From assembly GCA_030668875.1 (NCBI GenBank), contig DAOVER010000038.1, positions 1-28,644 on the forward strand: a stretch of DNA of 28,644 bases, given 5' to 3'. The DNA is from Candidatus Heimdallarchaeota archaeon. Lineage in GTDB: Archaea; Asgardarchaeota; Heimdallarchaeia; Heimdallarchaeales; Heimdallarchaeaceae. The position numbers were made by a program, and so were the translations under genes. The notes below the pieces were generated by a model. That model was not told where the DNA came from. It ran no database searches and saw nothing but the letters and a program-made list of their open reading frames with translations. The number at the start of each line of letters is the position of its first letter. Position 1 is the first letter of the stretch. Shown in pieces: positions 5,917 to 17,823 of the stretch.

Positions 5917-6318
5917 TTATGCTGTTGCGAGTCTTTCGTTTAAGATCGCAACGAGTTTTTTACTCCCAATTGGTTTATGAAGAACCTCAATATCTTGAGG
6001 AACAGTTATATTAGAAAAACCTGTTATAGCAATACATCTCAGATTTGGATCCTTTTTCTGCAGCTCTTGAATTAGTTCAATTCCATCCATTTTCGGCATG
6101 ATAATATCTGTTAAGACCAGATCAATAGTCTTATCAAACAATTGCAATGCTTCGGAACCATTAATCGCTTCGACAACATCAAATTGGCATTTTCTAAGAA
6201 TTAGTGTAGTTATCTCACGTAGCTTATCGTCATCCTCTACTAGTAAAATTCTTTTCTTTTCACTGTATTTACTGACAAGGTTTTCCTTCCTTTTGTAAAC
6301 ATGAATTTTAACCACCAT
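5917..6318 (-). CDS. Single-domain response regulator (receiver)
   Basis: ILLVEDD, TDIIMP, ITG, HKPI. Start placed at ATG 6318 (GAGAGG SD, overlaps the kinase stop); the ORF track extends to 6333. Confidence 0.9.
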   Translation of the reverse strand: MVVKIHVYKRKENLVSKYSEKKRILLVEDDDKLREITTLILRKCQFDVVEAINGSEALQLFDKTIDLVLTDIIMPKMDGIELIQELQKKDPNLRCIAITGFSNITVPQDIEVLHKPIGSKKLVAILNERLATA

Positions 6319-9300
6319 CCTCTCTTTTTTCATTCTGAGCTTTCTTTTCTTGACAATTTACCTGATCAAGTTCGTTTTGAACGTAGTTGACTATTTTTGA
6401 AGCTGTCATGGGTTTATTCAGAACTTTGACACCTTCTGGAACATGTACATCTGAATATCCTGTCATAGCTAAACATTTTATTTGAGGATTGATTTCTAAC
6501 AACTTCTCAATCAGTCTCTCTCCTCCCATAGTAGGCATAATAATATCTGTTAAGACTAGATCAAAAGAATCGTTATATAAGTCTAAAGCATTTTTCCCGT
6601 TTTCTGCAGTAACTACAGTATATCCGTAGTTCTCTAACATCATTTTTGTAATCTCTCTTACATCTTCATCGTCTTCAACTAGTAAAATTCTTCCTTCTCC
6701 ATTGCTTGCTGATTCCACAATCTCTTCTTCTATCAACCCCTCATGCTTTGGAATGTAGATGTGAAATTTTGTTCCTTCTTTCAATTCACTTTCCACATTA
6801 ATATAACCATTAGACTGCCTAACTATACCATAAACCTGTGCTAACCCTAACCCACTTCCTTTTCCTGGGTCCTTTGTAGTGAAAAAGGGTTCAAAGATCA
6901 TCTTTCTTGTTTGTTCATTCATCCCTTCCCCATTGTCTTCAATAATAAGCTGAATGTATTCTCGATTTTTGTCTATTTCTATTTCTTCAAAGTCCACTAT
7001 CTTTGAATGATCAATTTCTTCTACAGTGATATTGATTTTACCTCCACGAACAAGAGCATCTCTAGAATTCAATATGAGATTCATAAAAAGCTGTTGTAAT
7101 TGAACTCGATCTATTAAAACTGTCCAATCCTGTGTATTGGCAGATAAAATAATATTTTCCGGTAAGGACGATCTAATAACTCTGGAAAATTCTGTAATGA
7201 AATCAAGTATTGAAACAGGTTTTGGTTTAATCACTGTTTGTCTTGTAAAGTCTAACATCTGTCTTATCAATGATGCCCCTCTCTCACTTTGCTTGATTAT
7301 TAAATTCAGAAACTCTTTTGACTCTATATTTTCAGCATTCATTAAGGAGAAATCTGCTGCACCAATTATAGAAGCAAGAATATTGTTAAAATCATGAGCG
7401 ATACCACCAATCATCTTTCCTAATGTAGCTAATCTCTCTTGATGTAGTATCTTTTTCTGCATCTCTTTTTCTTCAGTTATGTCATGAATAGTTAGTAGCC
7501 AACCATGAACAAAATCACTCTTTATTGGACTCATAGAAACATAATAGGTATTACCATTCAGAGATAATTCCTTTTTGCCAAATTGCTTTAGCTCTTCAAG
7601 GTTTAATATTTCATTGTTTATTTCATCAGTCTTTGAATCTTTGATCATCTCTAAAAATCTACTTGCAGCTTTATTCACCATTACTACAGATTCGTGACTA
7701 TTCAAGAGAATGACACCGTCGGAAGTATGATCAAGAACTGCCTCTAATTCATCCTTTGCTGTTATAATTACTTTTAATCTTTGAAGAGTATGAGAAATGC
7801 TGTCTGCTATTTTATACAAGAACCAGATCTCTTCTTCAATATAAGCATCCTTTTGTTCTGAACCTATAACAATATATCCAACAACCTTATCCTCTGCAAT
7901 AAGCGGTATAGATATATGAGATGAAATTTTTTGAAGATTCTTCTCATTTGATGTAATAATAGTTATAGAATCGCGATTGGTTGAAGCATCAGGATTTATT
8001 TCTACAAATTCATCCTTAACTGTTTTTAGAAAATCATCGATTACTTCTTTATTACACTTTGGTGCTCCAATTTGAATGAGGTTTAATTCCTCTTGAGTTA
8101 TTAGTTGGACAATGATGTCATAATCAATTAACTGTGAAATATGCTTGGAAATAATTTCCATGGCTTCTTTTAAATCAAAAGTTTCAGATATATCTTTAAT
8201 AATATTGTACAATGTTTCCATTTGGTAAGTTCTCTGAATAACCTTCTCTTCTAGTTCTTCATTCAACTTACTTAATTTCTCTTCAGATTTTTTCCTTTCA
8301 GAAATATCTCTAGCGATTGTTAATACCATTTGATTGTTGTGATAATGAAAAGTATGAGCACTAACTTCAACTGGAATTATTTTCCCTTCTTTTGTACAAT
8401 GAGTCCCTTCAAAGGTTAGGTTTTTTAACGTTGTAAGTTTGCTAATTATCTCTGGAAGTTGCTTTTTAATTTCCTTTGAGGCTATATCAACAGGAGACAT
8501 TTTTCTGAACTCATCTTTAGTATAACCTAGCATATTACAGGCAACATCATTAACTTCAATAAAATTTGATGGCATCTGATCATCAATACTATAAAGATAT
8601 ATTGCATCATTAGCGTTATTAAAAATCATCCTGTATTTTTCTTCGCTGTCTTTAAGTTCTCTTTGAGTTTTTCTTATTTCAGTAACATCTTTTCCAGAAC
8701 TTAAAGTTCTTATAATTGTTCCTTCTTCATCCCTAATGAAAGTATTATCCCATGCTATTAGTCTCTCTTCACCATCTTTAGTGAGAATGAAGTTTTCATG
8801 GGACTCAGATTGTGTTAGTTTACCAGTTAATAATTCTTGATAAATTTCTTTTGTTTCTTCTCGAACTCTCTTAGGTAGAAAGTTTTCAAACCAATTTTTT
8901 CCAATTATCTCTTCGTGTTCATAGCCTAATAGTTCACAACCCCTTTTGTTGATTAATATAACATTTTCATTTGAATCAATTAAAGTTAGGATGGTATTTG
9001 CAATGTCTAGATATTTTTTTGTTGTTTCTCTTTCTTTCTCTAATTCTAATCTCATTTTGCGTTTTTCTGTGATATCTTCAAATAATACTGCAACATGATC
9101 TTTCATTGGAGAAAAAGATTTAGCTAAAAACCATTTACCAAGATTTTTGTTATAGTACTCTGATATTACAGTCTGTCCTGTTATCACGGTTCTTCCTAGA
9201 ATTACTATTGGATTAACCTCTTGTTTCTTCACGTTAGGATAGATTTCTGTTATTTTCTTGCCAATTATTTCATCTCTCTTCTTCTTAGTTAATTTTTCGT

Positions 9301-10552
9301 ATTCTGAATTAACTTCTACTAATATTGCATCTTCAGGGTCACCTTTTTTATCATATATCACTTCATATAAGGCGTAAGCTTGTTTCATTTCATTAAAAAG
9401 AGTACGAAACTTTTCTTCGCTAGTCTTTGCTTCTTTTTTAGCGATTCTTCTTTCAGTTATATCTCTTCCAACACATAAAATAGACTGTTGATTATCATAA
9501 CTGATAATTTTTGCCTTAAACTCCACATCTAATACTGACCCATATTTACAATTATGAGTTGTTTTAAATGTTATCTCTCCATTTTTCTTTAGTTCTTCAA
9601 TTCTCGAATCAAATAGGTCTCTATTTACTGAGGTCATAATGTCTAAAATATTCAGACTTAGCATCTCTTCTTCTGTATATCCTCTTGTTTTGTATGAGGC
9701 TTCGTTTACTTCAAGTATATTGCCTTTAAAATCTAAGATAAAGACAGAATCATTTATACCTTTGAGAGTTTCTGTCTGAATGCGAGAAACTTTTTTCTCT
9801 CCTTTTTGTTCAGCTATCTCCCTTTGAACGATTTCGTAGACGGTTTTTTTATAGAGTGTTTCATCTAGCTTATCTTCTCGTATTAATTGAAGTTGATGAG
9901 GGTCCATAAATAAAACATTTTCACATAAGTAACCATTAAAAATTAACTTAGAGTGTGTAATAATAGTCTCAAATAGTGTTTTAGAATCGAATTTGTATTC
10001 ATTATATAAACAGAAAAAAATAATATCTTTGTTTGAAATGAGTTTGTCGATAAGTGAATGAAGTTCCGTACTTATATTCATAGTTGAGTCCTTATTTTTT
10101 AAAGGTAAAATCTCAATGCTTATCCTTAATCCATTGAACTTGTCTTCTTGGGGAATTTCCAAATAAGCTTCAATTGATTCAATAGTTCTAGCAAGATTGA
10201 ACTCAGATTTATTACCATAAATATCTTCTGAATCTACGAACTCTAATGCTGAAGTATTGAGAAGATTCTTGATATCTTCTGAAGCCTTTATCTTTGTTAT
10301 AATATCTTCTATAGTTTTTTTTTCAACTATGATTACACATCTCTCTTTTTTTACTATGCCTGTTTTAAGGAATTCCATTATAGAATCTATCTTATCCTCA
10401 TCCTTTCGATAGATAGTACAGATGTGCTCGTTAGGAGATAGTTTCAATAGGTTTTCACCTAAATCATCAAATCTTCCAGAGAAATAAGCTAAATCATTGG
10501 AATTCTTCTCAATTTTGCTATTAGTTTCTGATTGCACGCGCAACTTAATCAC
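6308..10552 (-). CDS. Hybrid histidine kinase: MEDS-4xPAS-GAF-PAS-HisKA-HATPase-REC
   Basis: MEDS-like N-terminus (EHICTIY ... FLKTGIVKKERCVII ... GLRISIE), five PAS domains ending in DITE/DVTE/DISE, a GAF region, H-box GGIAHDFNNIL, PFFTTK-GKGSGLGLA and a C-terminal receiver. Confidence 0.93.
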   Translation of the reverse strand: MIKLRVQSETNSKIEKNSNDLAYFSGRFDDLGENLLKLSPNEHICTIYRKDEDKIDSIMEFLKTGIVKKERCVIIVEKKTIEDIITKIKASEDIKNLLNTSALEFVDSEDIYGNKSEFNLARTIESIEAYLEIPQEDKFNGLRISIEILPLKNKDSTMNISTELHSLIDKLISNKDIIFFCLYNEYKFDSKTLFETIITHSKLIFNGYLCENVLFMDPHQLQLIREDKLDETLYKKTVYEIVQREIAEQKGEKKVSRIQTETLKGINDSVFILDFKGNILEVNEASYKTRGYTEEEMLSLNILDIMTSVNRDLFDSRIEELKKNGEITFKTTHNCKYGSVLDVEFKAKIISYDNQQSILCVGRDITERRIAKKEAKTSEEKFRTLFNEMKQAYALYEVIYDKKGDPEDAILVEVNSEYEKLTKKKRDEIIGKKITEIYPNVKKQEVNPIVILGRTVITGQTVISEYYNKNLGKWFLAKSFSPMKDHVAVLFEDITEKRKMRLELEKERETTKKYLDIANTILTLIDSNENVILINKRGCELLGYEHEEIIGKNWFENFLPKRVREETKEIYQELLTGKLTQSESHENFILTKDGEERLIAWDNTFIRDEEGTIIRTLSSGKDVTEIRKTQRELKDSEEKYRMIFNNANDAIYLYSIDDQMPSNFIEVNDVACNMLGYTKDEFRKMSPVDIASKEIKKQLPEIISKLTTLKNLTFEGTHCTKEGKIIPVEVSAHTFHYHNNQMVLTIARDISERKKSEEKLSKLNEELEEKVIQRTYQMETLYNIIKDISETFDLKEAMEIISKHISQLIDYDIIVQLITQEELNLIQIGAPKCNKEVIDDFLKTVKDEFVEINPDASTNRDSITIITSNEKNLQKISSHISIPLIAEDKVVGYIVIGSEQKDAYIEEEIWFLYKIADSISHTLQRLKVIITAKDELEAVLDHTSDGVILLNSHESVVMVNKAASRFLEMIKDSKTDEINNEILNLEELKQFGKKELSLNGNTYYVSMSPIKSDFVHGWLLTIHDITEEKEMQKKILHQERLATLGKMIGGIAHDFNNILASIIGAADFSLMNAENIESKEFLNLIIKQSERGASLIRQMLDFTRQTVIKPKPVSILDFITEFSRVIRSSLPENIILSANTQDWTVLIDRVQLQQLFMNLILNSRDALVRGGKINITVEEIDHSKIVDFEEIEIDKNREYIQLIIEDNGEGMNEQTRKMIFEPFFTTKDPGKGSGLGLAQVYGIVRQSNGYINVESELKEGTKFHIYIPKHEGLIEEEIVESASNGEGRILLVEDDEDVREITKMMLENYGYTVVTAENGKNALDLYNDSFDLVLTDIIMPTMGGERLIEKLLEINPQIKCLAMTGYSDVHVPEGVKVLNKPMTASKIVNYVQNELDQVNCQEKKAQNEKREDGG
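8690..9076 (-). repeat. Duplicated PAS module, copy A
   Basis: Similar at DNA level to 13642-14028. By hand, 9001-9076 and 13953-14028 match at 69 of 76 nt. Confidence 0.85.
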
Positions 10553-10638
10553 AGTTTTTGAAAGAGATCTAAGTCTTTTCAGATATTCTTTTTAGTTTAA
10601 CATCCTTCTATCTTTATAACTAAATTTAGAAATATAAA

Positions 10639-10668
10639 TGAAAAAATGTGGAAAAATAGGGAAAAAAA
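10639..10668 (-). promoter_or_regulatory. 10-bp-period T-tract motif, copy 2
   Basis: Plus strand TGAAAAAATGT GGAAAAATAG GGAAAAAAA. On the minus strand it is followed directly by TTTATAT. Confidence 0.55.
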
Positions 10669-13600
10669 TCAATTAAAAATAGCTTTTCCTTTTGCTGTTA
10701 TCCCAAGAACTTTACTTCTTCCTTTGGTTAATTCATATATGTATTCTTCGCTAATTAAATCCTTTATTCGTTTCCTCGCTGTAGGTCTACTTATATCGAA
10801 AGCTTCAACGATATCTGTGTAGGAAGGTTTGTCTCCTGTTATGTTCCTTTTATGAACAAATTCTAATATCTCGATTAGTTCTTCAGGCAGAGTAGCTTCA
10901 GCTAAGGATTCAATCATTCGCATCTCTTTTCTCAATGATCTACTCTCTTTTTCAGTGATAGTTGCAGGATCAAGTGTTACAATGATTATGTGATTAGAGA
11001 GGTAGGCAATGTCCATTAATCTAAAGATGAAGAACAAAGTGGTCTCAAAACCATTCTTAGCAATGAGATAATCGAGCCTATCAATAACTATAACGTGCTT
11101 GCTTGGAAGTTCTTCTATTAGTTGTTCTATCTTGCTTAACTCGGAAGAGATGGTTTTTAGGTGCCCTTTTTCAGCTATTCTAAAGAAATCAAACCCATAA
11201 TTTATCTCTTTCTTCCATTCAGTTTCAGGTAATCTTGATAGAACTAGACCATTATATCCAACTCTTATCAAATCAGAAAAAGCTTCTTTTGAAATATATG
11301 GGCGCTCTTCTTCGGATAGATACAAAAGCGATTCTTCCAAATGATATCTCAAGGTTTGTCTTTTCAGCTCATCCTCTCTTTGCTTTTCAGCTGTGATGTC
11401 TCTAAGTGTTGTGAAGTATATTCTTTCTCCTGAAGTATCTATCTGAGCTATAGCAGTGATTGAACCCCAGAATTCGCTTCCATCTTTTCTAGAACGTTTT
11501 GTTTCAAAATTATAAACGAAATTCCTTTGACGTAATGAATCATAAAGTCTTTCACGATCTCTGATATTGAACCAATGATTAGTAAAAGGGGTTGAGAGAC
11601 ATTCTTCTTTTTTGTCATATCCAAAAAGCTTCCAAAAAGCTGGATTTATATCGATTAATTCTCCATCCAAGGAATTAATAGAAATAGCAAGGGGAATGTT
11701 TTCAAACAGATTTCGAAGTCTTTCTTCACTTTTTACTAACAGTTCTTCATTTATTTTTTTCTCCGTTACATCTATCAAAGAAGAATTATGATAAGTAGCA
11801 TTATTATTCTCATCATAAATAACTCGAGAGTACAACTCAATCCAAAAAAGAGAACCATCTTTCTTTTTCACCTTCATAAGATGATTATAATAAGAACCTT
11901 CTGTACCAAATCTTTCAAGAACTTCCTTACGGTCTTCTAAATCAAAATAGAACTCTTCAACTTGAAGTTTCATTATTTCTTCCACACTTTCATAGCCAAA
12001 AAATTTCACGAAAGCAGGATTACAGGCTATAATTTCCCCATTAGGTTTGTTTTGAATTAAACCAATAGGCGATTTATCAAAATGATCTCTGTATTTTTCT
12101 TCACTTTCTCTAAGTTCTTTTTCTGTCTTTTTTCGTTCAGTAATATCTCTACTTACAGACATAATGAGTTGTTTATCACCAAGATTTACCAGATTTAAGT
12201 TAAGTTCCTGCTGGTAAAGAGTACCATCTTTTCTAATTGCTATTGTCTCATAAGTCAAGAATTTCTCTTCGACGATATTTTTCAGAACTTTTTCCACAAA
12301 TTCGGGATTATTATATATATTAAAATCTAAAATGTTTTTGCCCACCGTTTCAGACCTTTCATATCCCTGCGTGTCTAAACCACTCTTGTTTATATCAATA
12401 ACTGTTCCATCTATTTCAAGAAGTGAAATGTCATCATGTGCATTGTCAAAGATGGACTTGAATTTTTCTTCACTTTCTCTAAGTTCTTTTTCAAGTTTTT
12501 TCTGTTCAGTTATATCAATTAGTGAAGCTATTTGTTGTTTTGTTTCAGGAATAATTCCTATTGTTACTAGTAGAGTTTTGTTTTCCCCAAATATGTTAAA
12601 ATCCGAGGTTTCAAAAGTCAATGGTGGAATAAAATCTATATTCATCCTTTTGACTGCTTTTATTATATTTTTTCTTTCTTCTTTCTGAACAAACTCTGTC
12701 CATTTTTTACCAATAAATTCGTCTTGTGAGATGCCTGATCTCTCTATCAATAGATCATTGACTAGTGTTATGGTAAAGTCTTCTTCTAATAGCATCATTC
12801 CTGTACCTGTATTGGCGAAAAGTGCTCTGTATAACGCTTCTGAAGATTTGATTTTTTCTTCACTTTCTTTCCTTTCAGTGATGTCTCTAATAATTACAAA
12901 GACTACTTCTTCACTACCAAGTAATAGTTTAACTGCGTTTGCTTCAATTGGGAAAATTGAACCATCTTTTCTTTTTGCTAAAGTTTCGAACTGAGCGTAC
13001 CCTTTCTTTTCGATTTCTTTCCCTCTTCTTATATGTTCTTCTTCAGTTTCAAATGTGTTAATTAATCTTGTATTATTAGAAATAACCTCAGAAGATTCGT
13101 ATCCAAACATCTCAAGAAATCTAGGATTTACTTCTAAAATAATACCTTCAACTGTTCTTAAAACATACCCATCATTGGAATAATTGAAAATACTTCTGAA
13201 CTTATGTTCACTTTTAAGAAGGTTTGAATATACCATTTTCTTCTCAGTAATGTCCTGTCCTTCTATTATAAATGAAGTAACAGCACTTTCATTATCTGTT
13301 ATTGGTTTCACAGAAAAATCCATAGTCTGAATATTGTCATTCTTATCTATATTTGTAATTTCATCTTGAATAACTTTCCCTTTAGAAGCTCTTTTTATAT
13401 TCTTTCGTAATCTAATTCTTTCTTCCTCTGAATGAGACCACCAATATGTATCCCAGATCAACTTTCCGACTACATCTTCATCCTTCAATCCTGCAAAATC
13501 TAGAGCTGTTTGATTGATTTTAAGTAATCTTCCTTCAAGATCTAAAATTCCAGTTAATTGAAAAGCATGGTTGAGGATGATATTTAATAATCTTTCACTT

Positions 13601-14382
13601 TCTCTCAGTTCTTCTTCTGCTTGTCTCTTTTCAGTAATATCTCTTCCTGAACTTAAAGTTCCTATGATTTTTCCTTCTTCATCTCTAATATCGGTATTAT
13701 CCCATGCTATTAGTTTCTCTTCACCATCTTTAGTAAGAAGGAGATTCTCATAGTACTCAGATTGCGCAATTTCATCATTCATTATCTCTTGAAAAACTTC
13801 TTTTGTTTTGTTACATATTCTCTTAGGTAGAAAATTATCAAACCAATTTTTTCCAATTATCTCTTCGTGTTCATATCCTAAAAGATCACAACCTTTTCTA
13901 TTAATTAATGAGACTTTCTCATTCGCATCAATTGCAATTAAAATGACGTTTGCAATGTCTAGATATTGTTTCATTGTTTCTCTTTCTGTCTCTAACTCTA
14001 CTCTCATTTTACGTTTTTCTGTGATATCCTCTCCTGAATATAAAACACCACTTAAATTTCCCTCTTCATCATTGAAAAAAGTGCTATGCCAAGAAATTAA
14101 TCTTTCTTCTCCTTCTTTTGTTAATATAGAATAACTCTTAGCTAGTTCGATCTCTTCTTTTTCATCAATTCGTTTAACAAAACTAGTTTTAATTTCCTTA
14201 GCTACTCCTTTAGGGAGAAAATTATTGAACCAGTTCTTACCAATAATTTCATCCTCTGAATAACCAAGAATCTCGCGTCCCCTTTTATTAATGAGAGTAA
14301 CTTTCTGATTAACATCAACTGCAATATAAATAAAATCTGCTATGTCAAGCAGTAATTGTGAACTAATTGCTCCTATACACAT
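10669..14382 (-). CDS. One-component regulator: 8xPAS-DUF835-like-winged HTH
   Basis: Eight PAS domains, then a DUF835-like region (GLVLSR ... VIVIDRLDYLIAKNGFETTLFFIFRLMD ... IIVTLDP), then a wHTH (SYTDIVEAFDISRPTARKRIKDLISEEYI ... ITAKGK). SD GAAGGGGA. Confidence 0.85.
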   Translation of the reverse strand: MCIGAISSQLLLDIADFIYIAVDVNQKVTLINKRGREILGYSEDEIIGKNWFNNFLPKGVAKEIKTSFVKRIDEKEEIELAKSYSILTKEGEERLISWHSTFFNDEEGNLSGVLYSGEDITEKRKMRVELETERETMKQYLDIANVILIAIDANEKVSLINRKGCDLLGYEHEEIIGKNWFDNFLPKRICNKTKEVFQEIMNDEIAQSEYYENLLLTKDGEEKLIAWDNTDIRDEEGKIIGTLSSGRDITEKRQAEEELRESERLLNIILNHAFQLTGILDLEGRLLKINQTALDFAGLKDEDVVGKLIWDTYWWSHSEEERIRLRKNIKRASKGKVIQDEITNIDKNDNIQTMDFSVKPITDNESAVTSFIIEGQDITEKKMVYSNLLKSEHKFRSIFNYSNDGYVLRTVEGIILEVNPRFLEMFGYESSEVISNNTRLINTFETEEEHIRRGKEIEKKGYAQFETLAKRKDGSIFPIEANAVKLLLGSEEVVFVIIRDITERKESEEKIKSSEALYRALFANTGTGMMLLEEDFTITLVNDLLIERSGISQDEFIGKKWTEFVQKEERKNIIKAVKRMNIDFIPPLTFETSDFNIFGENKTLLVTIGIIPETKQQIASLIDITEQKKLEKELRESEEKFKSIFDNAHDDISLLEIDGTVIDINKSGLDTQGYERSETVGKNILDFNIYNNPEFVEKVLKNIVEEKFLTYETIAIRKDGTLYQQELNLNLVNLGDKQLIMSVSRDITERKKTEKELRESEEKYRDHFDKSPIGLIQNKPNGEIIACNPAFVKFFGYESVEEIMKLQVEEFYFDLEDRKEVLERFGTEGSYYNHLMKVKKKDGSLFWIELYSRVIYDENNNATYHNSSLIDVTEKKINEELLVKSEERLRNLFENIPLAISINSLDGELIDINPAFWKLFGYDKKEECLSTPFTNHWFNIRDRERLYDSLRQRNFVYNFETKRSRKDGSEFWGSITAIAQIDTSGERIYFTTLRDITAEKQREDELKRQTLRYHLEESLLYLSEEERPYISKEAFSDLIRVGYNGLVLSRLPETEWKKEINYGFDFFRIAEKGHLKTISSELSKIEQLIEELPSKHVIVIDRLDYLIAKNGFETTLFFIFRLMDIAYLSNHIIIVTLDPATITEKESRSLRKEMRMIESLAEATLPEELIEILEFVHKRNITGDKPSYTDIVEAFDISRPTARKRIKDLISEEYIYELTKGRSKVLGITAKGKAIFN
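13642..14028 (-). repeat. Duplicated PAS module, copy B
   Basis: Paralogue of 8690-9076. Shared peptides include EDITEKRKMR.EL, YLDIAN, LLGYEHEEIIGKNWF, LTKDGEE.LIAWDNT and TLSSG. Confidence 0.85.
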
Positions 14383-14549: not shown

Positions 14550-15458
14550 GTGAGTTACATGAGTATAACTAAGAAAATCCATCCATTGATTGCAATAACT
14601 GGATTAGAGAAAGCTGGGAAAACAACTTTTATTCATCGACTAAAAACAGGGGAGTTTAAAGGTGATTTCCATCCAACAGTTGGATTTGACCTTTCTATTA
14701 TAAAAGAAGATGATTATCGTTTTGATGTTGTAGATTTAGGTGGACACCAGTCTTTTAGATCTACTTTCTGGGAAAATTTCGTTTCTTCTTGTCAAGGTTG
14801 TATATTTGTTTTTGACAGAACTGATAATGATAGAATGGATATAGTGAAAGAATGGTTGTGGAAGGTAGAAGAATGGATTCCTAAAGACGCAAACTTTGCT
14901 TTCTTTGCTAATAAATCTGATTTAGATGATACACTGAGCTTGGAAGAAATAGTAGAAAGTCTTGATCTAACCAAATTCAGTGAATCACCATTGAAAAGTT
15001 TCAGAATTTTCGAAACATCAAGTGTATCAGGGCAAAACGTTAAAGAGTGCTGGACTTGGTTATCTAAGTCTATCCGGAGACGACTTGAAGCTAAACCTTC
15101 AGTAAATGTTTGTGCATTTGAAATTTTAGATGATAGACTTGAACCACTTGTTGAAACAGTGCTAATTGAAGAAGGAAGAAAAGCTGAATTAAAAGAAGTA
15201 CAACAAGTTTTCAGAACACACTCTCTAAAAATGATTGATTCTTTACCTTCAATTAGTATAGACAATTTTGTCGTTCATATGCTTAAAAAGGGTGATTATT
15301 ATGCTATTCTTTATGTTGATAAAGAGGATGAGCAAAGCATTGCAAGAGAAACAGGGTTAACCCTATTCTTTGAAACTCTTTCTAGATTGAAACGAGAACT
15401 AACAGTAGATGATGAAGTAATCAAGAACATGGTTGATTCTGTCAAATGGGAATTCTAA
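14550..15458 (+). CDS. Arf/Sar1-like small GTPase with C-terminal longin-like domain (GTPase 3)
   Basis: G1 GLEKAGKT, G2 PTVG, G3 DLGGH, G4 NKSD, G5 ETSSVSG. The true start may be ATG 14559. Confidence 0.9.
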   Translation: MSYMSITKKIHPLIAITGLEKAGKTTFIHRLKTGEFKGDFHPTVGFDLSIIKEDDYRFDVVDLGGHQSFRSTFWENFVSSCQGCIFVFDRTDNDRMDIVKEWLWKVEEWIPKDANFAFFANKSDLDDTLSLEEIVESLDLTKFSESPLKSFRIFETSSVSGQNVKECWTWLSKSIRRRLEAKPSVNVCAFEILDDRLEPLVETVLIEEGRKAELKEVQQVFRTHSLKMIDSLPSISIDNFVVHMLKKGDYYAILYVDKEDEQSIARETGLTLFFETLSRLKRELTVDDEVIKNMVDSVKWEF

Positions 15459-15482: not shown

Positions 15483-16799
15483 GTGATTGAAGTGACAACT
15501 CTATCAGAAGTTTACAAAGTTAAAGGAGAAAGATCAAAAAAAGATATAAGTGAAGATGAAACACTCACTAACTTCTTTCATTCTTTAGTTGATGTTAATT
15601 CTGTTTCTGATATAATTGACAAAATATTCAACTTTTTGTTTGAATTATATCACCTGGAAGAGGGTTGCTTCTACTATGTTGATAAAAGAGAAAATATGCT
15701 CACTGCTTTTAGAAGAAGGAGTGAAGAACTGGAGTCTGTCGTAATTTTGAGTGAAAAGCTTCTATCTAGAATATATTCAATAAGGAAAACTCAAACTAGA
15801 AAAAGGTCGATTTCACTTAGAAAAAATATCCCAACAATATATTGCCCCTTTCATCTAGATAATTCTCTTGAATTTATGATAGAACTTCCCGTCTCTAAAA
15901 CTGTTCTAAATACAAATCAGATTATTAATGAACTTATGAAAATATTACCAATAATCTACATTAGTCTTAAAAATGCAGATTATCATCGATTTACAGAACT
16001 CTATGCTAAGGAGACAACTAAAATCCTTCAAAGTATCTCCTCAGGTATAGCTTCTATTGATTCTAAAGGCACTTTCCTCTTTGCTAATCAAATGTTTGAA
16101 ATGATGATAGGATACAGTTTAAATGAATTGTTGAGTTCTTCAACGCTTATCAATCATATCTTCCCAGATTTCTCTTTCATAATATTTGAAGGCAATGTGG
16201 TGGATAATCTAATCTACAATATAAGAAGGAAAGATGGAACAGAGTTTCCATGCCATATAACGATTACTCAAGTAAGTAAAGGAGATGAAACAACCTATAT
16301 ACTTAATTTGAAAGATGCTAGCTACATTATCAAACAAAAAGAGGAAATTAAAAACCTAAGAAAATCAATAGCTAATGAGGATAATATAGGTGTTGTACTT
16401 TTCCGTTTTGCGTCTTTTGGTGGAGAATTAATCAAAGAGGATCTTAGAAGTATTCAAATATTTCCAGAATATTTCTCCACGATGTGTTATACGAGCATCG
16501 CTCAAGGAAATAAACAACCAGTTGGAGTTTTTGGACCTTTACCAGCTCCGAAGCTAGATAATTACAGAACTATAATTTATGCATTTTTTGGAAAAGATGA
16601 TATTCCACTTGATCATCGGATGAAAGGAAGACAATATTATCTTATAGCAGTGATATTTCCAGAAAGAAAAACAGAATTCATTATCTCGAATAATAATATA
16701 GAAAAGGGATTCGATGATTATATCCAAAAATTCGAATACCCAAATCGTATGAAAAAACAAGAATTGTCACATTTTAGAGAAATAGTATTTGTAGATTAG
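15483..16799 (+). CDS. GAF-like/PAS sensor with C-terminal longin/uDENN-like domain
   Basis: Clear PAS (ILQSISSGIASIDSKG ... ANQMFEMMIGYS ... RRKDGTEFPC). C-terminal domain GVVLFRF ... FGPLP ... IIYAFF ... YYLIAVIFP; its fold assignment is tentative. Confidence 0.7.
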   Translation: MIEVTTLSEVYKVKGERSKKDISEDETLTNFFHSLVDVNSVSDIIDKIFNFLFELYHLEEGCFYYVDKRENMLTAFRRRSEELESVVILSEKLLSRIYSIRKTQTRKRSISLRKNIPTIYCPFHLDNSLEFMIELPVSKTVLNTNQIINELMKILPIIYISLKNADYHRFTELYAKETTKILQSISSGIASIDSKGTFLFANQMFEMMIGYSLNELLSSSTLINHIFPDFSFIIFEGNVVDNLIYNIRRKDGTEFPCHITITQVSKGDETTYILNLKDASYIIKQKEEIKNLRKSIANEDNIGVVLFRFASFGGELIKEDLRSIQIFPEYFSTMCYTSIAQGNKQPVGVFGPLPAPKLDNYRTIIYAFFGKDDIPLDHRMKGRQYYLIAVIFPERKTEFIISNNNIEKGFDDYIQKFEYPNRMKKQELSHFREIVFVD

Positions 16800-16878: not shown

Positions 16879-17823
16879 ATGGAAAACTTGAATTTCGAAA
16901 AAAAGAGTGTCCCCGTCACTCTGTTGGGATTAAATAATGCTGGTAAAACAAGTTTAGCATTAAGATTGGCGACAGGGAAATGGGTAGATAATACTTCCCC
17001 TACTATAGGTGTAAACTTTGAAACATATCGAGCTGGAGATAGTCTTCTTAAAATTTTTGATGTTGGAGGTCATGAAGTTTTAAGACGTCAATTTTGGTTA
17101 AATTATGCCGCAAATAGCTATGGTGTTCTCTTTGTATTTGACGCTTCAGATAAGAAAAGAACAGAGGAAGGTAAAGAATGGTTCTGGTATCTGATAGATA
17201 ATTTAGAGGTTGAACGGAGAATAGCCTTAGCTTTTCTTGCAAACAAAGCTGATCTTGAATCAATGGAAATGGATGAAGTTATCGAAGTTCTGGATTTACA
17301 AAAACTCAGTAAGTTTCCAAAAATTAGTTTTCAGATTTTTGAAGTAAGTGCAAAAACAGCAATGAATGTAGATACTGCAATGAATTGGTTTACAAAGAAA
17401 ATTCAAGAATGTACTCGAGAAAATACAGTGTCTCCTAAAGGATTAATAATTTCGTCCATATTTGGTAACATTAAACTTTTCTTAGATTTCTCTGATGTTC
17501 AACAAAATCTTATTTCTGTTCTAGACATGCTTTCTGAGGTTTTAAACGATAAGGATAATACTCTAAGAGATGAAAGGATAGCAAGTGTTGTATCACCATA
17601 TGGGCAGATCATTTTTCAAGAAAGAGGAGAAATTGTGATTTCATTAATTGTAGAACCAGAAGATTCTCAACTAGAAGCACAAAGACTGATTGAAATAATA
17701 TATGAACACATTGAAAGACAACATTCTACTTCTAAAGATGAATTGATGGAATTTATCATAAGAACACTTAATATTCCAGCAGATGATTACAGTGAAATTA
17801 ACGAGTATATATTGAAGGGATGA
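16879..17823 (+). CDS. Arf/Sar1-like small GTPase with C-terminal longin/roadblock-like domain (GTPase 4)
   Basis: G1 GLNNAGKT, G2 PTIG, G3 FDVGGH, G4 NKAD, G5 EVSAKT, then AMNWF. SD AGAGGT. Confidence 0.9.
   Translation: MENLNFEKKSVPVTLLGLNNAGKTSLALRLATGKWVDNTSPTIGVNFETYRAGDSLLKIFDVGGHEVLRRQFWLNYAANSYGVLFVFDASDKKRTEEGKEWFWYLIDNLEVERRIALAFLANKADLESMEMDEVIEVLDLQKLSKFPKISFQIFEVSAKTAMNVDTAMNWFTKKIQECTRENTVSPKGLIISSIFGNIKLFLDFSDVQQNLISVLDMLSEVLNDKDNTLRDERIASVVSPYGQIIFQERGEIVISLIVEPEDSQLEAQRLIEIIYEHIERQHSTSKDELMEFIIRTLNIPADDYSEINEYILKG

What the first reader, a model, noticed from the sequence alone, without database searches (positions are those of the whole stretch)
15483..16799. PAS sensor fused to a longin/uDENN-like domain, between two GTPases
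Seen: a GAF-like N-terminus, a clear PAS domain, a short coiled coil, and a roughly 135-aa C-terminal domain with an FGPLP motif instead of a kinase or HTH. The gene sits between GTPases 3 and 4. Established: longin and DENN modules are the GTPase-engaging parts of many eukaryotic GEF complexes. Inference (fold recalled, not computed): a ligand-regulated GEF/GAP-like protein, i.e. direct sensory control of an Arf-like switch.
Basis: inference. Interest (0 to 1): 0.72.

Follow-up and report, generated by a model that had tools for sequence, protein, structure and literature searches.

The report
Sensor-fused folliculin-type longin beside Arf-like GTPases
A Heimdall-group archaeon encodes a soluble GAF-PAS sensor protein ending in a longin domain like the catalytic part of folliculin/GATOR1/SMCR8, always next to an Arf-like GTPase, so it is a testable candidate for the missing signal-controlled off-switch (GAP) of Asgard Arf-family GTPases.

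Summary
ORF 15483-16799 (+) encodes a soluble protein of 435-438 aa made of four parts: a GAF fold (Z 13.5 to PDE5 GAF), a PAS domain (above Pfam cut-offs), a linker helix and a C-terminal domain. The C-terminal domain has no Pfam family. It models confidently (pLDDT 94) as a longin fold.

Its best solved matches are a Lokiarchaeal longin, Lst4, FLCN, Npr2/3-NPRL2/3 and C9orf72-SMCR8. It belongs to a family found in every sampled genome of the window's class and also fused to REC, PAS, TPR, GAF, beta-helix and, once, a Ras-like GTPase. Its most conserved residues are a Gly in the b1-b2 loop and a D-x-R in the b4-b5 loop (R379, 43 of 44 sequences). These fit the "GP motif plus arginine finger" described for eukaryotic and Asgard GAP longins (PMC12290439).

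An Arf-like GTPase of about 314 aa lies directly downstream in all 10 informative genome loci. A complex prediction puts R379 and the Gly loop on that GTPase's P-loop and switches (0.62 against 0.01 for controls).

Best reading: a GAF/PAS-gated GAP for the flanking GTPases (about 0.55). No activity was tested.

The scan noted a receptor with a folliculin-like tail beside Rag-like GTPases in another Heimdall genome (e1-546884, e1-546882). I did not check that here.

The parts
15483..16799 (+). GAF-PAS-linker-longin protein gene (438 aa from GTG 15483; 435 aa if started at GTG 15492, as in the database record)
15546..15977 (+). GAF-fold domain (residues about 22-165), followed by a long helix running to about residue 181
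   Evidence: AF2 pLDDT 85; PDE5A/PDE6/PDE2A GAF Z 12.7-13.5; Foldseek GAF hits at E 2.5e-4 and weaker
16020..16316 (+). PAS domain (residues 180-278); no cofactor motif recognised
   Evidence: Pfam PAS_9 E 3.1e-8 and PAS E 2.6e-6, both above their curated cut-offs
16317..16379 (+). Linker helix between PAS and longin (residues 279-299)
   Evidence: helix at residues 2-12 of the domain model, which is protein 287-297
16380..16796 (+). Longin domain of the FLCN/NPRL2/SMCR8-like class (residues 300-438)
   Evidence: pLDDT 94, topology bbabbbaa; VIA Z 10.4 (8yqg), 9.4 (Lst4), 8.1 (FLCN), 7.4, 7.3, 7.0; Atlas rows carrying Folliculin, NPR2 and C9orf72 families
16419..16427 (+). b1-b2 loop G313-G314-E315, at the position of the family's G-P-E ('GP motif'). 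G313 is invariant. The second residue is Pro in 25 of 44 and Gly in 13 of 44.
   Evidence: touches switch II residues 65-67 of the GTPase in the predicted complex
16530..16544 (+). FGPLP (350-354), which is strand b3 of the longin fold. G, P and P are invariant or nearly so across the family. It is not in the predicted GTPase interface.
16611..16619 (+). D377-H378-R379 in the b4-b5 loop. D is in 44 of 44 and R in 43 of 44 sequences. R379 is the candidate arginine finger.
   Evidence: in the predicted complex R379 touches GTPase residues 20 (P-loop) and 39-41 (switch I)
16879..17823 (+). Arf-like GTPase (314 aa) with DVGGH in switch II and a 135-aa tail; the conserved downstream partner gene
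   Evidence: Pfam Arf E 1.6e-32; best solved matches are chains named 'Arf GTPase', 8oul/8ouk; downstream of the sensor gene in all 10 informative genome loci and 5 contig contexts
14550..15458 (+). Arf-like GTPase (302 aa as listed; probably 299 aa from ATG 14559) with DLGGH and a 123-aa tail; upstream neighbour, 24 nt before the sensor gene
   Evidence: directly upstream on the same strand in 6 of the 10 genome loci

Best explanation
The gene encodes a cytoplasmic one-component signalling protein. A GAF domain and a PAS domain, whose ligands are unknown, are joined by a helix to a longin domain. That longin is of the class which serves as the catalytic GAP module in eukaryotic folliculin-FNIP, GATOR1 (NPRL2-NPRL3) and C9orf72-SMCR8.

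The proposed mechanism is as follows. The longin domain docks on the nucleotide face (P-loop, switch I, switch II) of the Arf-like GTPase encoded just downstream, and possibly also of the one upstream. It inserts the conserved Arg379 from its b4-b5 loop next to the Gly313-Gly314 loop and stimulates GTP hydrolysis. The GAF/PAS module, probably through the linker helix and dimerisation, sets how available or active the longin domain is.

Shown here: the domain folds, the family and its conserved residues, the gene linkage, and a predicted interface. Inferred: GAP activity, sensory gating, and which GTPase is the substrate.
For: (1) Fold. The AF2 model of 286-438 has pLDDT 94.1, pTM 0.90 and longin topology. 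VIA-align: 8yqg Lokiarchaeal longin Z 10.4 (rmsd 3.3, 134 aligned), Lst4 longin Z 9.4, FLCN 6nzd_H Z 8.1, SEA complex chain 8adl_S Z 7.4, GATOR1 chain 8fw5_B Z 7.3, C9orf72-SMCR8 7o2w Z 7.0. Foldseek's top ten are the same group. Atlas rows include a Heimdall cluster with PF11704 Folliculin in 23% of members (TM 0.68), and NPR2, C9orf72 and DENND11 clusters.

(2) Motifs. Across 44 family members G313 and D377 are invariant and R379 is present in 43 of 44. The residue after G313 is Pro in 25 of 44. PMC12290439 reports that a GP motif in the b1-b2 region plus a neighbouring arginine finger sets GAP longins apart from GEF longins, and that both occur in Heimdallarchaeial longins.

(3) Gene linkage. 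The P0003-type GTPase lies directly downstream on the same strand in 10 of 10 informative genome loci of the family (59-86% identity, against 50-69% for the full-length sensor genes and 60-77% for the two cut by contig ends) and in 5 contig contexts. The genomes are kin, so they are not independent. A paralogue in the own genome overlaps an Arf-like GTPase gene.

(4) Fusion. One family member (P0106, 337 aa) is a Ras-family GTPase fused to this longin domain, and it keeps the GP and D-x-R motifs.

(5) Complex prediction (P0003 + longin + GTP + Mg). Score 0.62, best of 3 controls 0.01. This mark was reached by 58 of 80 solved complexes and 2 of 110 mismatched pairs. The three runs agree in at least 89% of contacts and the partner's pLDDT is at least 87. 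The interface is GTPase residues 19-20, 24, 38-46 and 61-71 against longin residues 309, 311-314, helix a1, 342-345, D377, R379, M380 and Y385. My own alignments and riding ligands were used, so the calibration counts hold only roughly.

(6) Context. Zhu et al. 2025 searched for Asgard Arf GAPs by Foldseek and found none convincing.
Against: - No activity or binding was measured.
- This subfamily has Gly-Gly, not Gly-Pro, in the b1-b2 loop.
- Z scores of 7-10 lie only just above the range the tool calls common, and non-GAP longins and roadblocks follow at Z 6-7. Foldseek's best E-value is 1.9e-3.
- The best structural match has no assigned function, and Lst4/FNIP is the non-catalytic partner.
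- No sequence-level match to Pfam Folliculin or NPR2.
- Residue-level equivalence of R379 to FLCN R164, SMCR8 R147 or NPRL2 R78 could not be superposed here. It rests on loop position and the predicted contact.
- Solved complexes of longin GAPs with Rag and Arf exist, so the complex prediction may pass from memory.
- Eukaryotic longin GAPs are heterodimers carrying DENN or other C-terminal modules, which are absent here.
- Most other family members examined (REC-, short PAS- and beta-helix-fused) have no GTPase gene beside them.
Confidence: 0.55

Rival explanations
1. The longin domain binds the flanking GTPase but does not act as a GAP. It could be a GEF, a nucleotide-state-specific platform or an effector, as in DENN, Mon1-Ccz1, TRAPP, Ragulator or MglB-type longin/roadblock modules. 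This is the GEF half of the first reader's 'GEF/GAP-like' reading.
For: Most longin and roadblock regulators of GTPases are GEFs or platforms (PMC3747258 abstract). Mon1-Ccz1, TRAPP, MglB and LAMTOR chains match at Z 6-7. The target lacks the Pro of the GP motif. The predicted interface on switch I and II would also suit a GEF or an effector.
Against: A near-invariant Arg (43 of 44) and an invariant Asp sit in the loop that contacts the P-loop and switch I in the model with GTP bound. The closest matches of known function are the three longin GAP complexes, ahead of the GEF longins. PMC12290439 links the Arg and Gly-loop pair to GAP, not GEF, longins.
Confidence: 0.2
2. The domain is a general protein-interaction or dimerisation output of Heimdallarchaeial signalling proteins, with targets other than small GTPases. 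The adjacency to GTPases in this subfamily would then reflect co-regulation only.
For: The family is fused to REC, PAS, TPR, GAF and beta-helix modules. Members checked outside this subfamily have no GTPase neighbour. Longin domains also serve as SNARE and adaptor regulatory modules (Vamp7, Ykt6 and sigma-adaptin chains at Z 5.7-6.7).
Against: Adjacency is strict in 10 of 10 loci down to 50% identity. A Ras-GTPase-longin fusion exists. The complex prediction passed with near-zero controls and uses exactly the family's invariant residues.
Confidence: 0.12
3. The C-terminal domain is a third small-molecule-binding module, related in fold to GAF, PAS and IclR effector domains. The protein would then be a pure multi-sensor without a catalytic output.
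For: Lower-ranked fold matches include IclR effector, LOV and GAF domains (Foldseek ranks 11-20; VIA Z 5.5-6.3). The conserved polar residues (Q341, D377, R379) could line a ligand pocket.
Against: These matches rank below all the longin matches. The topology with two C-terminal helices is that of a longin. The conserved residues lie on a surface predicted to meet the GTPase, not in a pocket.
Confidence: 0.05

Closest known systems
Asgard 'FLCN/SMCR8-type' longin proteins with GP motif and arginine finger (Traffic 2025, PMC12290439)
   Same: Heimdallarchaeial longin domains that resemble eukaryotic GAP longins in structure, with a conserved Gly(-Pro) in the b1-b2 loop and a neighbouring conserved Arg. 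Their GTPase partner is unknown. An Atlas cluster of Heimdall proteins carrying PF11704 matches the model at TM 0.68.
   Different: The paper does not describe fusion to GAF/PAS or other sensor modules, nor a conserved operon with Arf-like GTPases (nothing found in its text). I could not check whether its sequences are this same family, because its supplement is not held. The target has GG rather than GP.
Folliculin-FNIP (yeast Lst7-Lst4), the longin-DENN GAP for RagC/Gtr2
   Same: Longin fold (FLCN Z 8.1, Lst4 Z 9.4). A conserved Arg lies in the loop before strand b5. From memory, FLCN Arg164 also lies in the b4-b5 loop. It acts on a GTPase that carries a C-terminal roadblock-like domain.
   Different: No DENN module and no known heterodimer partner. 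No Pfam Folliculin match. The neighbouring GTPases are Arf-like in sequence rather than Rag. N-terminal GAF-PAS sensors are absent from FLCN.
C9orf72-SMCR8-WDR41, a longin-DENN GAP for Arf (and possibly Rab) GTPases
   Same: A longin GAP with an arginine finger that acts on an Arf-family GTPase. Structural match Z 7.0 (7o2w) and 6.2 (6lt0). The predicted interface uses the Arf switch regions.
   Different: It is a heterotrimer with DENN domains and WDR41. Zhu et al. 2025 judged their two Asgard candidates to lack the Arf-interacting regions. Here the domain stands alone behind the sensor domains.
GATOR1 (NPRL2-NPRL3-DEPDC5; yeast SEACIT Npr2-Npr3), GAP for RagA/B
   Same: Longin fold match (8adl_S Z 7.4, 8fw5_B Z 7.3). 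GP motif and an Arg finger on NPRL2, per PMC12290439.
   Different: It is a large heterotrimer under nutrient control by other complexes. The Pfam NPR2 model finds nothing in this genome.
MglB, the bacterial roadblock-domain GAP of the Ras-like GTPase MglA
   Same: A small prokaryotic GTPase regulator of the roadblock/longin superfold, encoded next to its GTPase (Z 6.0 and 5.9).
   Different: Roadblock topology. From memory, MglB supplies no arginine finger. It has no sensor domains.

Membership tests
Longin domain (fold level) | b-b-a-b-b-b-a-a topology: a five-stranded antiparallel sheet sandwiched by helices | tested here: met
   DSSP of the AF2 model: E18-25, E28-35, H43-54, E63-69, E76-85, E99-108, H109-114, H118-129, H140-151; pLDDT 94
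Longin domain (fold level) | Structural match to solved longin domains covering the whole domain | tested here: met
   8yqg Z 10.4 (134 aligned), 4zy8 Z 9.4, 6nzd_H Z 8.1; only 3 chains reach Z >= 8 and all are longins
GAP longins (FLCN / NPRL2 / SMCR8-C9orf72 class) | GP motif at the end of the b1-b2 loop | tested here: inconclusive
   The family has an invariant Gly followed by Pro in 25 of 44 sequences. The target and its orthologues have Gly-Gly (G313-G314).
GAP longins (FLCN / NPRL2 / SMCR8-C9orf72 class) | Conserved arginine finger next to the GP loop, pointing at the nucleotide | tested here: inconclusive
   R379 is invariant in 18 orthologues and present in 43 of 44 family members. In the predicted complex it touches P-loop residue 20 and switch I residues 39-41 beside the G313 loop. 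No superposition on FLCN R164, SMCR8 R147 or NPRL2 R78 was possible.
GAP longins (FLCN / NPRL2 / SMCR8-C9orf72 class) | Sequence-profile membership (Pfam PF11704 Folliculin, PF06218 NPR2) | tested here: not met
   No Pfam hit for the target. One of 44 family members hits PF11704 at E 0.013. Genome-wide searches with PF11704 and PF06218 find nothing at the locus.
GAP longins (FLCN / NPRL2 / SMCR8-C9orf72 class) | Heterodimer with a second longin subunit, and a C-terminal DENN or other module | tested here: not met
   The protein ends with the longin domain and has no DENN module. A partner longin was not tested. The tails of the flanking GTPases show no profile similarity to this family (hhalign probability 0.2).
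GAP longins (FLCN / NPRL2 / SMCR8-C9orf72 class) | GAP activity on a Rag or Arf family GTPase | not testable with these tools
   Only a predicted interface is available.
DENN-family Rab GEFs (uDENN-cDENN-dDENN) | Central DENN and downstream dDENN domains after the longin (uDENN) | tested here: not met
   There is no sequence after residue 438. The Atlas DENND11 match covers the longin part only.
Roadblock/LC7 (MglB, LAMTOR) | a-b-b-a-b-b-b topology without the two C-terminal helices | tested here: inconclusive
   The model has two to three C-terminal helices, as in a longin. Roadblock chains match at Z 5.8-7.1 over only 93-107 residues, below the longin matches.
PAS domain | Pfam PAS models above their curated cut-off | tested here: met
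   PAS_9 34.2 bits (cut-off 27); PAS 27.8 bits (cut-off 22.6); residues 180-278
GAF domain | GAF fold | tested here: met
   PDE5A, PDE6 and PDE2A GAF at Z 12.7-13.5 over 148-157 residues. There is no Pfam GAF hit, so membership is at fold level only.
Arf family GTPases (the neighbouring genes) | Arf-family G domain with the G1-G5 motifs | tested here: met
   Pfam Arf 112.8 bits for both. The best solved matches are chains named 'Arf GTPase' (8oul E 2.7e-24). P0003 shows GLNNAGKT, T42, DVGGH, NKAD and SAK.

The most novel reading that the evidence does not exclude
This longin family is the prokaryotic root of the eukaryotic longin GAPs (folliculin, GATOR1, C9orf72-SMCR8). In Heimdallarchaeia it serves as a general signal-output module. 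Sensor or receiver domains (GAF, PAS, REC, TPR, surface receptors) would directly gate an arginine-finger GAP acting on Arf/Rag-like GTPases. That would be a one-protein forerunner of eukaryotic nutrient-sensing GTPase control, with this operon as its simplest testable case.
Probability: 0.3. Interest if true: 0.85.

Novelty: new variant of a known kind. Interest (0 to 1): 0.68.

Why it matters
Asgard archaea carry many Arf- and Rag-like GTPases, but no native GAP or GEF has been shown for them. A dedicated structural search found no convincing Arf GAP (PMC11914678). The authors who noticed GAP-like longins in Heimdallarchaeia left the question of partner GTPases open (PMC12290439).

This locus offers a concrete pairing. 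A candidate GAP longin sits in a conserved operon with its likely substrate. It has a specific residue to mutate (R379) and built-in sensor domains. If it holds, regulated GTPase switching of the folliculin/GATOR1 type predates eukaryotes and was wired directly to small-molecule sensing.

Tried and rejected
- Pfam on the C-terminal domain and on all 44 family members: no family, apart from one PF11704 hit at E 0.013.
- Profile of the family against all PDB sequences: nothing below E 1.
- Pfam Folliculin and NPR2 models against the whole genome: nothing at this locus. The one weak Folliculin hit elsewhere is no better than hits in the control genomes.
- Language-model Atlas search of the domain: scores of 0.77-0.79 only, which count as leads.
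- Foldseek against PDB: no hit at E <= 1e-3, although the top ranks are longin GAP complexes.
- hhalign of the GTPase tails against the longin family: no relation (probability 0.2). I therefore dropped the idea that the sensor's longin pairs with a homologous longin tail of the GTPase. The predicted interface also uses only the G domain.
- GTPase neighbours of other family members (short PAS-longin, REC-longin, about 598-aa beta-helix-longin): none found within the flanks held. The neighbourhood argument therefore holds only for this subfamily and one paralogue.
- Supplementary sequences of PMC12290439 are not held, so identity with the published Asgard longins could not be checked.
- Papers searched for PAS- or REC-longin fusions in Asgard archaea: none found. 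The library is incomplete.
Full report
**What is there.** The window has about 31-35% G+C. Its proteins are named Heimdallarchaeota/Heimdallarchaeaceae by the public sources. ORF 15483-16799 (+) gives 438 aa from a GTG. The identical database record has 435 aa, which corresponds to the second GTG at 15492. The protein has no hydrophobic segment.

Arf-family GTPase genes flank it on the same strand. One lies 24 nt upstream (14550-15458; probably starting at ATG 14559, as in its orthologues). The other lies 79 nt downstream (16879-17823). Both have Pfam Arf E 1.6e-32 and both carry an extra C-terminal tail of 123-135 aa. A 925-aa protein with no clear Pfam family follows. A large PAS/histidine-kinase/receiver block runs divergently on the other side.

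**Checking the architecture.**
- PAS domain: above Pfam's curated cut-offs at residues 180-278.
- N-terminal region (22-182): folded with 18 orthologues at pLDDT 85. It is a GAF fold (PDE5A GAF Z 13.5, rmsd 2.9, 148 aligned; 70 chains at Z >= 8, dominated by GAF domains).
- C-terminal 153 residues: folded with a 44-sequence family alignment at pLDDT 94.1 and pTM 0.90. The order is linker helix, b1, b2, a1, b3, b4, b5 and two to three helices, which is the longin topology.

**What the C-terminal domain is.** It has no Pfam family and no sequence-level relative in the PDB. By structure, the only three solved chains at Z >= 8 are longins:
- a Lokiarchaeal longin (8yqg, Z 10.4);
- Lst4, the yeast FNIP (Z 9.4);
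- human FLCN (Z 8.1).

The SEA complex, GATOR1 and C9orf72-SMCR8 come next at Z 7.0-7.4. Roadblock proteins and the GEF longins (TRAPP, Mon1-Ccz1) follow at Z 6-7.

Foldseek's E-values are weak (best 1.9e-3), but its top ten are the same complexes. Among predicted structures, the model matches Heimdall clusters partly annotated Folliculin or NPR2, eukaryotic C9orf72 and DENND11, and the tails of Asgard Arf-family proteins. The Z values are only moderately above what the tool calls common. The class assignment therefore rests on the consistency of the hits plus the motifs, not on any single score.

**The family.** An exhaustive phmmer search with the domain found 112 representatives. Where named, they come from Heimdallarchaeota, Hodarchaeales and Odinarchaeota. 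Architectures seen:

| Architecture | Note |
|---|---|
| PAS-X | |
| REC-X | |
| REC-PAS-X | |
| TPR-X | |
| PAS-X-GAF-GAF | |
| REC-X-HATPase | |
| X-PAS | |
| NosD/beta-helix-X | |
| Ras-family GTPase-X | one case, P0106 |

X is the longin domain.

In whole genomes the domain was found in all 43 sampled genomes of the window's class other than the window's own, usually in 3-10 copies. It was found in 6 of 156 sampled genomes from the rest of the phylum. The own genome has six copies.

The invariant or near-invariant residues are:
- G313 in the b1-b2 loop, followed by Pro in 25 of 44 sequences and by Gly in this subfamily;
- Q341-G342;
- G348 and G351-P352-x-P354 (the FGPLP strand);
- D377 and R379 in the b4-b5 loop (R in 43 of 44).

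A 2025 paper reports that a GP motif in the b1-b2 region and a spatially adjacent arginine finger are shared by FLCN, NPRL2, SMCR8 and C9orf72. It reports that these are absent from GEF longins and present in Heimdallarchaeial longins, and it leaves the partner GTPase open (PMC12290439). The family here fits that description. I could not confirm that it is the same set of sequences.

**Link to the GTPases.** The full-length GAF-PAS-longin orthologues were found only in the window's own taxonomic family, in 11 of 28 genomes searched (E <= 1e-40).
- In all 10 loci with usable flanks, the orthologue of the downstream GTPase (59-86% identity) sits immediately downstream on the same strand. The full-length sensor genes there have diverged to 50-69% identity, and the two cut by contig ends align at 60-77%.
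- The upstream GTPase orthologue is directly upstream in six of them.
- Five metagenomic contexts agree. One has six Arf-like genes around the sensor gene.
- A more distant homologue (39% identity) has no GTPase within 1.5 kb.
- One own-genome paralogue (263 aa) overlaps the end of an Arf-like GTPase gene.
- Other family members examined have no GTPase neighbour.

Neighbourhood evidence is thus specific to this subfamily. The related genomes are kin, not independent observations.

**Predicted complex.** The downstream GTPase (16-row alignment) was folded with the longin domain (44-row alignment), GTP and Mg. The score was 0.62, against 0.01 for the best of three controls. This mark was reached by 58 of 80 solved complexes and 2 of 110 mismatched pairs. 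The three runs share at least 89% of contacts and the partner's pLDDT is at least 87.

The interface is the GTPase's P-loop (19-20, 24), switch I (38-46) and switch II (61-71, including His65). On the longin side it comprises F309, S311-G314, helix a1, G342-Q345, D377, R379, M380 and Y385. R379 touches P-loop residue 20 and switch I residues 39-41. The G313 loop touches switch II residues 65-67. The family's most conserved residues thus form the predicted contact with the catalytic face.

Caveats:
- my own alignments and riding ligands depart from the tool's calibration;
- solved longin-GAP complexes with Rag and Arf exist, so the pass may reflect likeness rather than binding;
- the score is not a measurement.

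**Mechanism.** The best-supported reading is a one-component sensor whose output is a longin-type GAP for the flanking Arf-like GTPases. These have His in switch II (DVGGH and DLGGH). From memory, this is as in Sar1, which also needs an arginine supplied in trans. GAF and PAS would gate the longin domain through the connecting helices. That step is pure inference, and no ligand can be named.

The GEF/platform reading remains possible. It is disfavoured by the conserved Arg/Asp loop and by which solved complexes match best. A function unrelated to GTPases is disfavoured by the strict gene pairing and the Ras-longin fusion.

**Comparison with what is known.** The protein works like the catalytic longin of folliculin, GATOR1 or C9orf72-SMCR8. 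It is not a member of those families by sequence profile. It also lacks their DENN or other C-terminal modules and any known partner subunit. It is not a DENN GEF.

The nearest described entities are the Asgard "FLCN/SMCR8-type" longins of PMC12290439. I did not find the following in the papers searched:
- the fusion to GAF-PAS, and across the family to REC, TPR, GAF and a GTPase;
- the conserved operon with an Arf-like GTPase;
- a residue-level interface model.

The scan earlier noted, on another Heimdall genome, a surface receptor with a folliculin-like tail beside Rag-like GTPases (e1-546884, e1-546882). I did not test that note. It suggests the same logic with a different input module.

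**Verdict.** This is a new variant of a known kind. Interest is moderately high, because it turns an explicitly open question (the native regulators of Asgard Arf/Rag-like GTPases) into a simple bench experiment.

Noticed in passing
L029-L040 (genomes of the window's genus); proteins P0031, P0032: A sister subfamily of about 598 aa joins an N-terminal NosD/right-handed beta-helix region to a longin domain that is 40-54% identical to the target's. It occurs in many genomes of the same genus but was not found in the window's own assembly. No Arf-like gene lies within the 1.5 kb held downstream.
   Followed up: partly
protein P0106 (337 aa): A Ras-family GTPase domain (Pfam Ras E 4e-33, residues 3-168) is fused directly to this longin family's domain (179-308). 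It keeps the G-P and D-x-R motifs, which gives a Rosetta-stone link between the family and small GTPases.
   Followed up: partly
L005 (own genome, contig 71): 1174-1965 (-) and 1958-2947 (-): A 263-aa paralogue carrying the same longin domain (E 4.9e-5) overlaps by 8 nt the end of a 329-aa Arf-like GTPase gene. This is a second longin-GTPase pair in the same genome.
   Followed up: partly
window 14550-14570 and 15483-15500: Start codons. Orthologues of the upstream GTPase begin at the Met that corresponds to ATG 14559, not GTG 14550. The database record of the sensor protein has 435 aa, which would start at GTG 15492.
   Followed up: partly
window 17962-20739 (+): A 925-aa protein with only sub-threshold TPR and HigB-like Pfam hits is kept directly after the downstream GTPase in close relatives (898 aa in L007 and L009). 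It may belong to the same module.
   Followed up: no
window 15087-15458 and 17416-17823 (tails of the two GTPases): The 123-135 aa tails of the flanking GTPases show no profile similarity to the sensor's longin family (hhalign probability 0.2). Their fold was not computed here. Atlas clusters of Asgard Arf-family proteins with tails do match the longin model (TM 0.60-0.66).
   Followed up: partly
L011 (metagenome contig, homologue at 50% identity): Six Arf-like GTPase genes (184-318 aa) cluster around the GAF-PAS-longin gene within 9 kb.
   Followed up: no
L016: 3158-4000 and 5001-5903 (Odinarchaeota contig): Two receiver-domain proteins about 1 kb apart both carry this longin domain at the C-terminus (tblastn E 6e-8 and 7e-13), with no GTPase gene on the 10.9 kb held.
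   Followed up: no
window 6308-14382 (-) and loci L007, L009, L013: The divergent multi-PAS protein and the MEDS-PAS histidine kinase upstream are also kept in synteny with the GTPase-sensor-GTPase unit in relatives.
   Followed up: no
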